Shown one piece after another: positions 386-56,680 of a stretch of 64,000 bases of DNA. The stretch is from Eledone cirrhosa (lineage: Eukaryota). The notes beneath the pieces were generated by a model. That model saw nothing but the letters and a program-made list of their open reading frames with translations. It made no database searches and had not been told where the DNA came from. Both the position numbers and the translations under genes were made by a program. The stretch spans positions 16,740,001 to 16,804,000 of the forward strand of contig OZ024742.1 in assembly GCA_964016885.1 (NCBI GenBank), read 5' to 3'. Within the stretch, counting starts at the first letter, position 1. Each line of letters starts with the position of its first letter.

Positions 386-481
386 ACCCCGACGGCTGAG
401 CTCAAGCCGTTTCGACGGCTAATTCTGGACTAAATGAAAATTTTTATCCTGGTATTTGAATAGCCGAGCTTCTCAAGGGGT
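386..481 (-). ncRNA. Type I hammerhead ribozyme, U3-A8 core variant
   Basis: Minus strand reads ACCCC-UUGAGAA-G..CGGCUA..UAGCCG.C-GAAA-CGGCU..AGCCG-UC^-GGGGU. Stems I, II and III all pair, and the cleavage triplet is GUC. Confidence 0.8.
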
Positions 482-1513
482 AATTCCATATATGGTAAAA
501 GTGATTGTCACAAGGATTGGTCAAAAGTTTGTTGTTGAGACATAATAATTCTATGATGGCAATTTGTGGAGGGAAGGGGTAGCTGAACCTGCCAGTAGGA
601 GAAAGAGGGAGAGGGCGTGTAGGAGACCCATTCATGCGTTGATAGTGCCGACTACAGCTGGGCATGAGGTCAAAGAAGAAACTAGGGAGGGGGAGGGACA
701 GGAAGGCGAAACAATAAGTAGAACAGTATGGGGTAAATATATAGAAAAATACCGAGAGTGTTAAAAAGCAATTAAATGTAAAAAAAAAAAAAAAAAAATT
801 CTGGTTACTACGACCTAAGTCTCTCACTGGTACTGCTAGGCTAAAGAAAGGTAAACTAGGTGGGACGGAATTATAATGGGACCCTTTTAAGAGGTATAAG
901 TAATAAACCGAATATATCTTACAGTGACGGGTCAACAAGTGAGGGGCCAAGATACTAAAGAAACTACCACTAAATAATAAATTAAGGTTTCTACCCCAGG
1001 CACAAGGCCAGGAACCACCCAGTGCAAAAAAGTAAACTAATGCGAAATAATAAATCAGAGTCCCGAAAAAGAATACTAATACTATCTCTAAGGGTGCCGC
1101 CACGATACAAAAGTTCTAGTGCAAGCTACATAAAAGCTCGTACGAAGTATATGTAAAATTAGATACGGAAAATTAATTCAGAATCCCCCCCCCTCCAAAA
1201 AAAGGCTGATATACGAGAAATTAAAGCAAAGATACCACTAAGAAATATAAAAAGCACGGAAAAGGGGCAGCGGTCGGATAAGAGGGCAAGTATCCGGAGT
1301 CTAACACATCTGCTATATTCTTTGACCTCATGCCCAGCTGTAGTCGGCACTATCAACGCATGAATGGGTCTCCTACACCCCCTCTCCCTCTTTCTCCTAC
1401 TGGCAGGTTCAGCTACCCCTTCCCTCCACAAATTGCCATCATAGAATTATTATGTCTCAACAACAAACTTTTGACCAATCCTTGTGACAATCACTTTTAC
1501 CATATATGGAATT

Positions 1514-1609
1514 ACCCTTTGAGAAGCTCGGCTATTCAAATACCAGGATAAAAATTTTCATTTAGTCCAGAATTAGCCGTCGAAACGGCTTGAGCTCAGC
1601 CGTCGGGGT
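1514..1609 (+). ncRNA. Type I hammerhead ribozyme, U3-A8 core variant
   Basis: ACCCU (1514-18), UUGAGAA (1519-25), stem II, GAAA (1582-85), CGGCU/AGCCG, UC^ (1604), GGGGU. Confidence 0.8.
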
Positions 1610-1898
1610 TCTACTCGTTTCTCTCTCTCTCTCTCTCTCTCTCTCTCTCTCTCTCTCTCTCTCTCTATATATATATATATATATATATATATATATATAT
1701 ATATATACATACACATATACATACACATATACACACACACATATATACACACACACATACATTAATAACAATAATAATAATAATAACAACAATAATAATA
1801 ACGACAACAACAATAATAATATACATATACATATATATATACACATATACGCACACACATAGATGTGAGAAAAACCACAGACCCTCCATCTCAACTCA

Positions 1899-1936
1899 CC
1901 TTTTGAAAAGCAGAAGAACTGCGAAACCGGTAGAGG
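1899..1936 (+). ncRNA. Minimal type I hammerhead ribozyme, U3-A8 variant
   Basis: CCUU-UUGAAAA-GCAG aagaa CUGC-GAAA-CCGG-UA^-GAGG. The short palindromic stem III is typical of Penelope-associated minimal hammerheads. Confidence 0.8.
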
Positions 1937-2191
1937 AACCAAATAAATATATATATTTAAAAAAAAAATAAGACACCAGTTGCATTTTCGATTTCATCTC
2001 TTTTTCTTTATACTTTCACTCGTGTAGGACACCTCGGTTATTTTTCATTTTGTAAAAAACCCCTCACTTTCTAATATATATATATATATATATATATATA
2101 TATATTTTTTTTTTTATTTTTTTTTTTTTTTCCTCGTGCAATGGCCATCTCACAGATGTGAGAAAAACGACAGACCCTCCATCTCAACTCA

Positions 2192-2229
2192 CCTTTTGAA
2201 AAGCAGAAGAACTGCGAAACCGCTAAAGG
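2192..2229 (+). ncRNA. Minimal type I hammerhead ribozyme, U3-A8 variant with a mutated stem III
   Basis: CCUU-UUGAAAA-GCAG aagaa CUGC-GAAA-CCGC-UA^-AAGG. Confidence 0.65.
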
Positions 2230-2574
2230 AACCAAATAAATATATATATTTAAAAAAATATATAATAAGATTCAAGTTGCATTTTCGATTTCATCTCTTT
2301 TTCTTTATATATATATATATATATATATATATATATATATATATATATACATACATATACATACATACATATGTATATATATATAAATATATATATATAT
2401 ATATATATATATATATATATATATATATATATATATATATATATATATACACATACATATATATTAATAACAATAATAATAATTATAACAACAATAATGA
2501 TAACGACAACAACAACAATAATAATATACATATATATATATACACACACACGCACACACATAAACATATCTATA

Positions 2575-53297: not shown

Positions 53298-54628
53298 TAT
53301 GTTTTTTTTATTTTTTAACACAATATTTTACTTTCTTCTCCTTGTCCCTTCTCGTTCCTTTTTCTTTTTTCTTTCTTTTCTGTTCTTTTCTTTCGATCTC
53401 ACCAGACTGACGTTGCTATAAAAATCTCAATGCATTCTCCCAGTCGTCACATAAAATTCTATGTGTACATGCCATAACTCAATTGCTATACCTTATTGTT
53501 TTGACTTGTCTTTAACACCTCGGACAGTGTTTTGACTTGTGTCAGACACTGTGACTCCGGGTGAAAATGCAGTACCGATGGTAGGGTCAAAACTGCCTAA
53601 GTCCATCTCTGTGTCTTTCGTTTGTATTTTTATTTTCAAAACAATTTTTTTAAAGACTTCCCTGGTCCTTTTGGAAGCCTCTACAATGCAGATGGATAAA
53701 TCTCCGGGTAACAAAAAAAGGTGGCATTAAGGAGAAATGGCATGAAAATGGAAGAGAATTATTTCTGTCCATAGAAGCGCAGTGACACCCATCATTTGCC
53801 AGCTGTAACAGAAATTGGAATACATAGACTATATACACACACTATATCAAAGACATATGAGAGGTGTTGAAATTCGGTTGAATCCTCAATGAACCGATTA
53901 TCCACGCGTGTATATATATATATGTATATATATACATAAACTATGACTATATATATATATATATATATATATATATATATACATACATATTAGAATTGGC
54001 GCTCTGAAATAGCTATATATATATGAATGTATATACAGTGTATTTTGCAATACACTGTATGCTTAATTAAAAGCATTTTGAAGACCTTATGCTATTGTTT
54101 TAGAGTAGTGACTGACTCACTTACTTTAAATTTTCAGCAAACAGGGGAGATAAAGCTGACAGAGCTATGTATATATATATATCTGTGTGTGTGTCTATAT
54201 ATATACATCATGCGCTTCTACTGGATATCGAAAACCATGAAATGGAGTCATTTAGAAACATTTTTAGTCAAGCAAATAATCGTATAACTTTTGTATAACT
54301 CATGAACGACGGGTATATAGATATATAGATATATAGATATATAATTAGCTACGATTGTTGTCTTGAGAAAGTGAAATATGACAACCACCATAATTTCATA
54401 TATTTCCAAATGTTTCGCATTTTGTCAATCCATCATCACTGTCGTTATTTTGTTTTCTTTCCTGACATTTACATGTCATATGCTTGTTTCATAATGTAAC
54501 AATCCAGCTGCAATATATTGCCGACAGAACATCGCCACAAATGATATGATACATTTCATAAAAGATAGTATTTAGTGCAGTGGCTACAGATCTTAAATGC
54601 AAACGATGATTATGTGACATTATTGCTT

Positions 54629-54813
54629 GGATTGGCAATATCGGTAGTGGGTTGGACGCCATGCTTTGCAGCACAGAATTACGTTCCCTTACGGATTAAG
54701 TTCAAATCCCGCCGAGGTTAACTTTGCCTTTCATCCGTACGGGGTCGATAAAATAAAGTACCAGTAATGTACGATGTAATTGCTCGCCTTGTGCCAAAAG
54801 TAGAAACAATTAT
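54629..54813 (+). mobile_element. tRNA-derived SINE
   Basis: agttcaaatcccgccgaggttaactttgcctttcatccgtacggggtcgataaaataaagtaccag...gtagaaacaattatt. Confidence 0.85.
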
Positions 54814-54989
54814 TGTTAAACCAAGCTGAACATCCGAAGTCACTGCTAGTTCTCTACACAGAATATAACATTTATACGTTACTTACACGTACTGGAATGT
54901 TTTTGTGTACAGCAGTATTTTAAAAGCCCATTCTAATATATACACTTACACACGCACACATCCATATACCCAATATATATATATAATAA

Positions 54990-55166
54990 ATGTAATCTGA
55001 GTTTTTTGAAAATTGATAACAACATTCGATTCGTTTGCAATTATGCAGACAAGCCTCAATTGTATAGCCATGTCAGTAGAATGAACCCTTCATTCTTGCT
55101 CCTGTGCTGGCATAATTGCAAATGGATCGAATGTTATTATTAATATTAGAAAAACTCAGATTACAT
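54990..55166. repeat. Imperfect inverted repeat with ~58-bp arms
   Basis: atgtaatctgagttttt...cattcgattcgtttgcaattatgc pairs with gcataattgcaaatggatcgaatg...aaaaactcagattacat. Confidence 0.8.
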
Positions 55167-55941
55167 GTATTGTATTCAGCCATGTAGAGCGAAAATGTTC
55201 TTATATATATATGTGCTGAGGATCGAATTCCAACCGTGACCATCTCCACTGAAAGTTTTCGTGAAATAGTCTTTTCAAGACTATACAGAGCATTTGTAGT
55301 TGTTCCAAATTGAAGGATGAGTATTTTAGACTTTATTTTATCATGAGTTAAGGCTCTATTGATTTTTCCCTGGATTTCACTAAATTCTGTTGGATTAATC
55401 TATATCCTGATTCCTTTTGAATTGAGTTTGAATTATTTTTTCTCACATCTTACGTTAACTATTTTCCCATTTTGACGCTATAGTCACTTATATATTATGG
55501 AATACTGTTGGCTTCTTGCTACAATAATTTCTATACTTTTCATTTATATATATATATATATGGGCGATTTTAGGCATAATATTTGTGTGTTGGTATTTTA
55601 ACGATAGTTATAGCTCTGATTTATCTGAATTATTGAGCCCTCTGCCACTCATGTCGGATTTGTTTATCGTAAACTCGTGAGCTGATTTTCCGATACTCGA
55701 TTATTCTACTATATTTAGCTCTAGACTTAGCTATTGACCAGTTAATTTTATTGTTCATTTTTTGTCGATTCTATTAAATGATGAATAGCTCCTGTTTATT
55801 TTAACATGTCTACCGAGCACTCTTATTCGATATGTGGTTTCCCACATTACTGAAAATTTTTCGCGGATATAGAGGTTATCTCCCTTGCTGGACTCCATGT
55901 GCGTCTCAGCTAAGGTTGGCTTCTTTATTCGTTTGGACATG

Positions 55942-56076
55942 ACCCGTTGATAAAGTGTTCCGGTCCATCCGCTCTCTAGAAGTCTTATGCATTTTTATGT
56001 GGGCTGATAGAGGGCGGATTAAGGAATTGCAGAAACCCAAGAAGCTAGATTTACCATCTTTCTAGTGGGTCCGGGT
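55942..56076 (+). ncRNA. Type I hammerhead, U3-A8 variant with extended stems II and III (unit 1)
   Basis: ACCCG-UUGAUAA-aGUGUUCC..AUCCGCUCUCUA..UAGAGGGCGGAU..GGAAUUGCa-GAAA-CCCA..CUAGA..UCUAG UGGG-UC^(56071)-CGGGU. Confidence 0.75.
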
Positions 56077-56544
56077 AAGTTTTTTACATTCATATGAATT
56101 ATTGATTTATTGATATTTTATCTGAGTGACCCGAATCTTCCTGGTCGTTATTTTTCGGCCGCATGGGTGATTTTAGGCATAATCTTTGTGTGTTGGTATT
56201 TTAACGATAGTTATAGCTCTGATTTATCTGAATTATTGAGCCCTCTGCCACTCATGTCGGATTTGTTTATCGTAAACTCGTGAGCTGATTTTCCGATACT
56301 CGATTATTCTACTATATTTAGCTCTAGACTTAGCTATTGACCAGTTAATTTTATTGTTCATTTTTTGTCGATTCTATTAAATGATGAATAGCTCCTGTTT
56401 ATTTTAACATGTCTATCGAGCACTCTTATTCGATATGTGGTTTCCCACATTACTGAAAATTTTTCGCGGATATAGAGGTTATCTCCCTTGCTGGACTCCA
56501 TGTGCGTCTCAGCTAAGGTTGGCTTCTTTATTCGTTTGGACATG

Positions 56545-56680
56545 ACCCGTTGATAAAATGTTCCGGTCCATCTGCTCTCTAGAAGTCTTATGTATTTTTA
56601 TGTGGGCTGATAAGGGGGCGGATTAAGGAATTGCAGAAACCCAAGAAGCTAGATTTACCATCTTTCTAGTGGGTCCGGGT
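56545..56680 (+). ncRNA. Type I hammerhead, U3-A8 variant (unit 2)
   Basis: Same fold as unit 1 with a few stem II substitutions. Predicted cleavage is after C56675. Confidence 0.7.

What the first reader, a model, noticed from the sequence alone, without database searches (positions are those of the whole stretch)
386..56680. Seven hammerheads in four unrelated families share the compensated U3-A8 core
Seen: UUGAGAA (386-481 minus, 1514-1609), UUGAAAA (1899-1936, 2192-2229), UUGAUAA (42956-43045 minus) and UUGAUAA (55942, 56545). Each has paired stems I and II, GAAA and a UH triplet; stem III pairs in all but the 2192 copy. Known: C3 and G8 form a tertiary Watson-Crick pair, and the C3U/G8A double change keeps activity but is an uncommon natural variant. 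Inference: both positions change together in families with unrelated stems, which argues for selection on cleavage. The variant outnumbers the canonical core here, so this lineage may hold a large ribozyme population missed by CUGANGA searches.
Basis: partly seen in the sequence, partly recalled or inferred. Interest (0 to 1): 0.88.

Follow-up and report, generated by a model that had tools for sequence, protein, structure and literature searches.

The report
Swapped-core hammerheads in Penelope retroelements
Five abundant jumping-gene families in this animal genome carry a predicted self-cutting 'hammerhead' RNA in which a core C-G pair is replaced by U-A, a swap already published for other animals, but one of these families also multiplied about 1,400 copies with the pair broken, so cutting is likely only weakly needed for its spread.

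Summary
All seven motifs are there, plus an eighth in a fifth family (41972, minus). Families A and B are pseudo-LTR hammerheads of protein-coding Penelope-like elements (A Hydra clade, B Neptune/Nematis type). C and D are non-coding 593- and 603-bp tandem units. U3-A8 is already published (Perreault 2011; about 1,300 hits in Schistosoma PLEs, Cervera 2014), and this scan noted it before on other DNA.

In a 1.15-Mb systematic sample canonical C3-G8 outnumbers U3-A8 70 to 10, so the excess is local. U3-A8 still comes to roughly 20,000-30,000 motifs. The reverse-transcriptase tree rejects one clade for the U3-A8 elements, and B, C and D keep the pair in 99-100% of listed copies.

Family A does not. 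1,388 of 5,273 copies have mismatched C3·A8, inherited through several subfamilies between an older and a younger U3-A8 stage, while stems and GAAA stayed conserved. The fold is therefore conserved, but the 3-8 pair is under weak or intermittent selection. Cleavage and expression were not tested. This natural allelic series makes it testable whether PLEs need ribozyme cleavage.

The parts
279..1317 (-). Family A: 5'-truncated 3' end (3' UTR and pseudo-LTR) of a Hydra-clade Penelope-like element, ending in (AT)n
   Evidence: linked to a 784-786-aa open frame in tandem arrays (L266, period 3542 bp)
386..481 (-). Family A hammerhead, core UUGAGAA 476-470, near-palindromic stem III, GUC with C17 at 391
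1318..1634 (+). Inverted partial copy of family A (PLE-type inverted 5' structure)
   Evidence: arms 361-677 and 1318-1634, 97%
1514..1609 (+). Family A hammerhead in the inverted copy, core 1519-1525, C17 at 1604
1861..2105 (+). Family B pseudo-LTR fragment of a Neptune/Nematis-type PLE; minimal hammerhead 1899-1936, core UUGAAAA at 1903, palindromic ACCGGU, A17 at 1932
   Evidence: full element L192
2153..2309 (+). Second family B fragment; hammerhead 2192-2229 with broken stem III palindrome (ACCGCU), likely decayed
38700..41788 (-). 5'-truncated PLE 'W' (RT + GIY-YIG, 775-aa frame 39273-41600) whose own 3' hammerhead is canonical C3-G8 (38899-38871); serves as internal control
41788..42886 (-).
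42881..43420 (-). Family C: solo copy of a 593-bp non-coding tandem unit; hammerhead 43045-42956, core UUGAUAA, palindromic ACUACGUAGU, C17 at 42961
46645..46709 (-). Family A copy truncated inside loop II (3' half of the hammerhead only, no core)
47484..47552 (+). Canonical C3-G8 hammerhead (CUGAUGA at 47494) of a multi-copy family
55560..56924 (+). Family D: about 2.3 head-to-tail copies of a 603-bp non-coding unit; hammerheads with cores at 55947 and 56550, A.A mismatch at 10.1/11.1, true hairpin stem III, C17 at 56071 and 56675

Best explanation
These are type I hammerhead motifs carried by Penelope-like retroelements (families A and B, which encode RT and GIY-YIG endonuclease) and by non-coding repeats (C, D, E) that are likely mobilised by PLE enzymes; U3-A8 replaces C3-G8 and is predicted to keep the tertiary pair, allowing likely slow cleavage, for A, B, C and E as dimers through palindromic stem III. 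The ribozyme would cut read-through or tandem transcripts to unit length. The PLE protein would then nick (AT)n and prime cDNA at fixed internal sites downstream of the cut site. Because inserted copies run across the scissile bond (shown), their templates were uncut or re-ligated there (inferred). U3-A8 arose or was lost at least twice among PLE clades. Selection keeps the overall fold, but on the 3-8 pair it is weak or intermittent: family A passed from U3-A8 through a long-lived C3.A8 stage back to U3-A8.
For: Motifs exceed shuffles. Across multi-copy clusters 13 are C3-G8 and 7 U3-A8, none mismatched by majority. Listed copies keep U3-A8: B 100 of the first 100 of 12,620; C 99 of the first 100 of 5,914; D 29 of 29; E 15 of 15 loci. 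B flanks an RT+GIY-YIG frame in L192. A flanks a frame with the Hydra motifs DKT, CxCX5C, CxxC/CxH and no CCHH (against PMC8557442 section 11). U3-A8 elements are not one clade, p-AU 5e-37; the C3-G8 links of A's relatives recur in 3-4 loci each. Fixed 3' ends followed by (AT)n: A +20 and about +103, C +80/+243, D +249, matching two internal priming sites (PMC11167929). Among six family A subfamilies, 32 of 57 5'-flank and 12 of 39 loop II columns change, against 3 of 50 in stems, GAA and H17 (stem I 5', U4-G5-A6, A9 and part of stem II 5' were fixed by my search pattern). Ladder tree with positions 3, 7, 8 masked.
Against: No cleavage or expression data; the only search for RNA runs gave no usable holder. 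In one published pairwise scan only the G-C swap rescued this pair (PMC9901934). Metazoan PLE hammerheads cut poorly in vitro even as dimers (PMC4209133). Conservation of the stems could reflect protein binding rather than catalysis. B's sister family has GCAA in place of GAAA. No PLE partner was found for C, D or E. The root of the family A ladder is a midpoint, supported only by within-subfamily divergence (0.115, 0.087, 0.054, 0.053, 0.030, 0.012); a tree without the oldest group nests C3 inside U3 without showing a reversion.
Confidence: 0.7

Rival explanations
1. Strict selection on cleavage: every propagating element needs an efficient ribozyme, so only paired cores spread.
For: No mismatched majority among 20 multi-copy clusters; B, C, D 99-100% paired; G8 is rare in family A, 44 of 5,273; the youngest A subfamilies are U3-A8 again.
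Against: 1,388 C3.A8 copies form a supported lineage with inner branches (99/98), share a linked loop II base in 28 of 33 copies against 0 of 35 and carry the ORF (L277, L278). In young families uniform cores mostly reflect copying from one master.
Confidence: 0.15
2. The fold is kept mainly as a structural signal (RT binding, dimerisation, priming geometry) and cleavage is dispensable; U3-A8 drifts in by transitions in an AT-rich genome.
For: Long-lived C3.A8 lineage; GCAA in B's sister family; all inserted copies read through the cut site; Naiad PLEs spread without hammerheads (PMC8557442); position 3 of family A sits at a C-run/U-run boundary.
Against: Drift alone predicts U3.G8 and C3.A8 families as often as U3-A8; none had a majority in the clustering. 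In family A position 7 varies among subfamilies while A8 stays.
Confidence: 0.25
3. The CUGAGAA core is still active, either through a protonated C.A wobble or by slipping register so that G at position 7 pairs with C3 (position 7 deleted, one extra A at 9.1); the mismatch is then only apparent.
For: U3-to-C3 and A7-to-G7 map to the same step of the ladder; 95 of the first 100 C3.A8 copies have G7; PLE hammerheads often have an extra base at 9.1 (PMC4209133).
Against: The C3/G7 link is one inherited event, not many. From recall, deleting position 7 is poorly tolerated; one search found no paper on it. G7 persisted after the return to U3.
Confidence: 0.12
4. The motifs are chance hits or artefacts in AT-rich repetitive DNA.
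For: UUGANAA has the higher background (shuffle mean 1.5-2.65 per 1.15 Mb); Rfam finds nothing.
Against: Multi-copy families, position in pseudo-LTRs, palindromic stem III, compensatory changes in D relatives, window shuffles.
Confidence: 0.02

Closest known systems
Hammerheads of metazoan Penelope-like elements, including the U3-A8 variant of Schistosoma mansoni Cercyon (Cervera and de la Pena 2014, PMC4209133; parts 1-2 of 4 read, supplements not seen)
   Same: Type I motif in pseudo-LTRs, short stem I, palindromic or minimal stem III predicted to work as a dimer, inverted pairs, many solo copies, and the U3-A8 covariation itself (about 1,300 U3-A8 against about 2,000 canonical minimal hits there).
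   Different: Here U3-A8 is tied to two separate PLE clades, is about one motif in eight to ten, several motifs have long stem II inserts (50-100 nt), and one lineage carries an amplified uncompensated C3.A8 core.
Hydra clade of C-terminal EN+ PLEs (Craig et al. 2021, PMC8557442; passages, section 11 and a search of one supplementary file)
   Same: Family A protein has DKT, an RWR form of RWK, CxCX5C linker, no CCHH, CxxC and CxH around the E and N residues, C-terminal GIY-YIG and (TA)n targeting.
   Different: Described with canonical hammerheads and few families; here a U3-A8/C3.A8 core, a 3.5-kb unit, and relatives in 25 of 100 sampled 10-kb stretches. Their hammerhead file S2 was not available.
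Metazoan non-LTR retrozymes (Cervera and de la Pena 2020, PMC7229834, passages; Li, Clavereau and Pollet 2026, 10.64898/2026.07.22.740005, part 1 of 5)
   Same: C and D are non-coding head-to-tail units with one type I hammerhead each, dispersed as monomers to multimers, with PLE-like ends.
   Different: Units of 593 and 603 bp exceed the 170-400 nt described; cores are U3-A8; circular RNA is not shown.
Natural core variants of the hammerhead (Perreault et al. 2011, PMC3088659, passages)
   Same: C3-G8 to U3-A8 covariation reported in several natural examples.
   Different: Described there as rare; no amplified mismatched intermediate in the passages read.

Membership tests
Type I hammerhead ribozyme | Core N3-UGA-N7-N8-A, GAAA, UH with a Watson-Crick 3-8 pair | tested here: met
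   U3-A8 in all eight window motifs; not met in the C3.A8 subfamily of A elsewhere in the genome
Type I hammerhead ribozyme | Three stems around the core | tested here: met
   Met for A, B(1903), C, E as dimers and for D as monomer with a 10.1/11.1 mismatch; stem III broken in the 2196 copy
Type I hammerhead ribozyme | Loop I-loop II tertiary contact of fast natural hammerheads | not tested
   No search for loop contacts was run
Type I hammerhead ribozyme | Self-cleavage after H17 | not testable with these tools
   No RNA ends available
Rfam hammerhead families | Covariance-model match | tested here: not met
   No hammerhead family among 90 matches up to E=10; the canonical motifs of the window were missed too
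Hydra-clade PLE (family A) | RT with DKT and RWK motifs, CxCX5C linker, C-terminal GIY-YIG without CCHH, CxxC and CxH motifs | tested here: met
   L266 frame read; RWK is RWR; Pfam gives no hit; the Atlas lists clusters with GIY-YIG and RVT_1 on part of their members
Hydra-clade PLE (family A) | Placement with reference Hydra RTs in a tree | not testable with these tools
   No reference set held; the tree has own-genome rows only
PLE (families A, B) | Pseudo-LTRs, tandem and inverted insertions, tail, (TA)n target | tested here: met
Neptune/Nematis-type PLE (family B) | RT + C-terminal GIY-YIG with two cysteines between GIY and YIG and a CX2-5CxxC linker | tested here: met
   which of the two clades was not resolved
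Non-LTR retrozyme (C, D) | Non-coding head-to-tail repeat with a type I hammerhead in each unit | tested here: met
   (longest ATG frames 38 and 61 codons)
Non-LTR retrozyme (C, D) | Typical unit size 170-400 nt | tested here: not met
   593 and 603 bp; filed as retrozyme-like only
Non-LTR retrozyme (C, D) | Expressed as circular RNA | not testable with these tools

The most novel reading that the evidence does not exclude
The CUGAGAA core that an active Hydra-clade PLE carried through several subfamilies is a working ribozyme (slipped register with G7 standing in for G8, or a protonated C.A pair) and is a natural mutational bridge between canonical and U3-A8 hammerhead cores, preserved as a dated allelic series of more than a thousand genomic copies.
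Probability: 0.12. Interest if true: 0.75.

Novelty: new member of a known kind. Interest (0 to 1): 0.42.

Why it matters
The U3-A8 core and its presence in PLEs are published, so the finding as worded is a good new example rather than a new system. What the genome adds is a measured share (about one hammerhead in eight to ten, some 20,000-30,000 motifs invisible to CUGANGA descriptors and to Rfam), at least two separate origins or losses among PLE clades, and a natural single revertant (C3.A8) that spread to about 1,400 copies. Whether PLEs need their hammerhead to cut is described as unclear in PMC8557442. Family A supplies near-identical ribozymes that differ at positions 3 and 7 and an intact young element, so the question can be tested directly. 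It is also a rare genomic record of an uncompensated intermediate at a catalytic RNA base pair.

Tried and rejected
Rfam scan: no hammerhead match. The idea that family C's hammerhead belongs to the neighbouring PLE W was rejected: C is a separate tandem unit, and W's own hammerhead is C3-G8. The idea that the 41972 motif is W's 5' pseudo-LTR was rejected: it ends at 41788 and W continues differently in L113. A single U3-A8 PLE clade was rejected. No sequence link of C or D to six PLEs; no RT upstream of E in 7 extended loci. Trees were confounded by non-homologous flanks and are not used for order. One search had a pattern one base out of register (23 hits, ignored; redone). RNA evidence: two RNA runs held 4% of the words and laid one contig each outside the hammerhead; the other two laid runs are of unknown kind, so nothing follows for expression. 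PDB search of the A protein found nothing. Lunse et al. 2017 and Przybilski and Hammann 2007 are not held; only their titles were seen in reference lists, and they may bear on core variants and on U3-A8 rates. The weak hits at 58206, 46376, 45678 and 34779 were treated as background and not followed up. The host taxon was not determined; 'octopus-type' appears only in earlier AI notes.
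Full report
Setting. The window is G000:C3:16740001-16804000 of a 3.0-Gb animal genome rich in (AT)n. About 29 kb of it is a 50-bp satellite. The host taxon was not determined.

Observation. All seven cores are at the stated places. A strict descriptor recovers four of them plus a canonical motif at 47494. The window thus has 8 U3-A8 motifs in five families and 2 C3-G8 motifs. In 200 local shuffles of the 35-kb non-satellite sequence the relaxed descriptor gave 0 U3-A8 hits 191 times and 1 hit 9 times, against 4 in the real sequence. 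Rfam reports no hammerhead, canonical or variant. Stem III is a palindrome or near-palindrome in A, B, C and E. For A and B the hammerhead fold appears only when two copies are folded together, as described for PLE hammerheads (PMC4209133, parts 1-2 of 4). D has a true hairpin stem III and an A.A mismatch at the base of stem II; relatives in L178 and L196 keep its stems through compensatory changes and keep U3-A8.

What carries them. Family B is the pseudo-LTR of a PLE: L192 has an inverted copy, a 5' copy, an RT + GIY-YIG frame and a 3' copy. Family A lies about 1.1 kb downstream of an endonuclease in several loci. Its full element forms tandem arrays of 3,542 bp with 784-786-aa open frames, and the protein shows the Hydra-clade motifs listed in PMC8557442 section 11. 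C and D are non-coding head-to-tail units of 593 and 603 bp. E is a 1.1-kb 3' end with no coding partner in 7 extended loci. Copies end at fixed distances after the predicted cut and run into (AT)n: A at +20 and about +103, C at +80 and +243, D at +249. This fits the two internal priming sites shown for a PLE in vitro (PMC11167929, abstract and first half of the main text). It also means that inserted copies were templated across the scissile bond.

How common. In 115 evenly spaced 10-kb stretches (1.15 Mb; one further stretch did not exist) the strict descriptor found C3-G8 70 times in 33 stretches, U3-A8 10 in 7, C3.A8 1 and U3.G8 2. Shuffle means were 0.35, 1.5, 0.4 and 0.4, and the reversed control gave 0, 1, 0, 1. 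The relaxed descriptor gave 135, 15, 2 and 5, with shuffle means 0.95, 2.65, 0.75 and 1.2. Tandem arrays inflate the canonical count. Scaled up, this is roughly 180,000-350,000 canonical and 22,000-32,000 U3-A8 motifs (my arithmetic, rough). Exact whole-genome patterns agree: A 5,273, B 12,620, C 5,914, D 29 (the A, C and D patterns cover only the 5' half). The excess of the variant is therefore local.

Do 3 and 8 covary? Clustering 307 hits from the loci then held gave 13 multi-copy C3-G8 clusters and 7 multi-copy U3-A8 clusters, none with a C3.A8 or U3.G8 majority. Two other small clusters (G3/U8, A3/U8) each sat in one locus and look like artefacts; singletons included 11 C3-G8, 3 U3-A8, 4 U3.G8 and 2 C3.A8. 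Loci of A, B and C were fetched on purpose, and clusters may share ancestry. A 13-row protein tree separates A from B by a long branch; each side also holds C3-G8 families, and holding the four U3-A8 rows together is rejected (p-AU 5e-37; one row under 150 aa was dropped, several rows are stitched from broken frames). The link between endonuclease and C3-G8 hammerhead in A's relatives recurs in 3-4 loci each. So U3-A8 was gained or lost at least twice. Independence of C, D and E is not shown. Among listed copies B is U3-A8 in 100 of 100, C in 99 of 100 and D in 29 of 29, which in young families mostly reflects one master.

The exception. In family A, 1,388 of 5,273 pattern matches are C3.A8 and only 44 have G8, 5 of them C3-G8. 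In the window's own subfamily C3.A8 leads 878 to 638. These are not scattered mutations: 28 of 33 C3 copies share a loop II base found in 0 of 35 U3 copies, two inspected C3 elements carry most of the ORF, and 11 of 12 C3 rows form a supported branch with inner structure (39 of 115 copies). A tree of 51 of 110 copies with positions 3, 7 and 8 masked gives a ladder UUGAAAA, CUGAGAA (two stages), UUGAGAA (the window's), then UUGAUAA and a youngest UUGAGAA group. Within-group distance mostly falls along it, from 0.115 to 0.012 (one small UUGAUAA group reads 0.079 because of one divergent copy). The root is a midpoint, so the order is inferred. Over these subfamilies 32 of 57 5'-flank, 12 of 39 loop II and 4 of 13 3'-flank columns change, against 3 of 50 in stems, GAA and H17; in the core only positions 3 and 7 change (part of the 5' side was fixed by my pattern). 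B's sister family has GCAA for GAAA, a second sign of relaxed constraint.

Mechanism. Shown: motifs, carriers, ends, counts. Inferred: dimeric cleavage of tandem or read-through RNA, mobilisation of C, D and E by PLE proteins, and weak selection on the 3-8 pair in A. Untested: any cleavage, expression or circles. The run search gave no usable RNA. Published activity of U3-A8 is mixed: 'proven to be active in vitro' in PMC3088659 (passages), but low for all changes other than the G-C swap in one pairwise scan (PMC9901934, passages).

Novelty. Natural U3-A8 was reported in 2011 and in PLEs in 2014, about 1,300 hits in Schistosoma. Earlier notes of this scan report it in this and other genomes, including what appears to be family C. 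Paper searches showed no report of an amplified C3.A8 lineage, but Lunse 2017, Przybilski and Hammann 2007 and the hammerhead supplements of PMC4209133 and PMC8557442 could not be read. Also consulted as passages: PMC6765202, PMC7151607, PMC7229834, PMC3884650, and part 1 of 5 of 10.64898/2026.07.22.740005.

Verdict. Real, abundant and of a known kind; interest 0.42, raised by the family A series, which makes the need for cleavage in PLE transposition directly testable.

Noticed in passing
window 41788-42886 (minus), motif 41972-41851: Eighth U3-A8 hammerhead, fifth family (2,420 first-look candidates, 15 of 15 loci UUGAAAA); its 3' end is fused directly to the 5'-truncated PLE W at 41788.
   Followed up: yes
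family A copies in L091-L190 and L201-L215; window 46645-46709: Hot spot of 5' truncation inside loop II of the hammerhead: of 70 pieces reaching the cut site, 33 start 40-49 nt after position 3 and only 8 keep the core; many join an inverted copy at that point. Possibly a reverse-transcription stop or a cDNA annealing site.
   Followed up: partly
L196 about 4470-4510, L200, L145, L151: Sister PLE of family B (about 55% protein identity) whose hammerhead has UUGAAAA but GCAA in place of GAAA (A13C), in several copies.
   Followed up: partly
L091-L190: Hydra-clade PLE relatives in 25 of 100 sampled 10-kb stretches and 54,319 first-look candidates, far more than the few families first described for the clade; several lack a detectable downstream hammerhead.
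   Followed up: partly
L170, L179, L168, L215: Long tandem arrays of canonical C3-G8 hammerheads (periods about 310, 490 and 420 bp), typical retrozyme-like repeats; the genome may hold 180,000-350,000 canonical motifs.
   Followed up: no
window 6037-34797: Satellite of about 576 copies of a 50-bp unit.
   Followed up: no
window 43569-43648: Perfect 80-nt palindrome, related to 46926-47055 and to the end of elements in L148 and L160.
   Followed up: no
window 3372-4839, 50560-51759, 62234-63250: Fragments of non-LTR retrotransposons (RVT_1, Exo_endo_phos).
   Followed up: no
L096, L184, L112, L054, L101, L206: At least four further U3-A8 hammerhead families not present in the window.
   Followed up: partly
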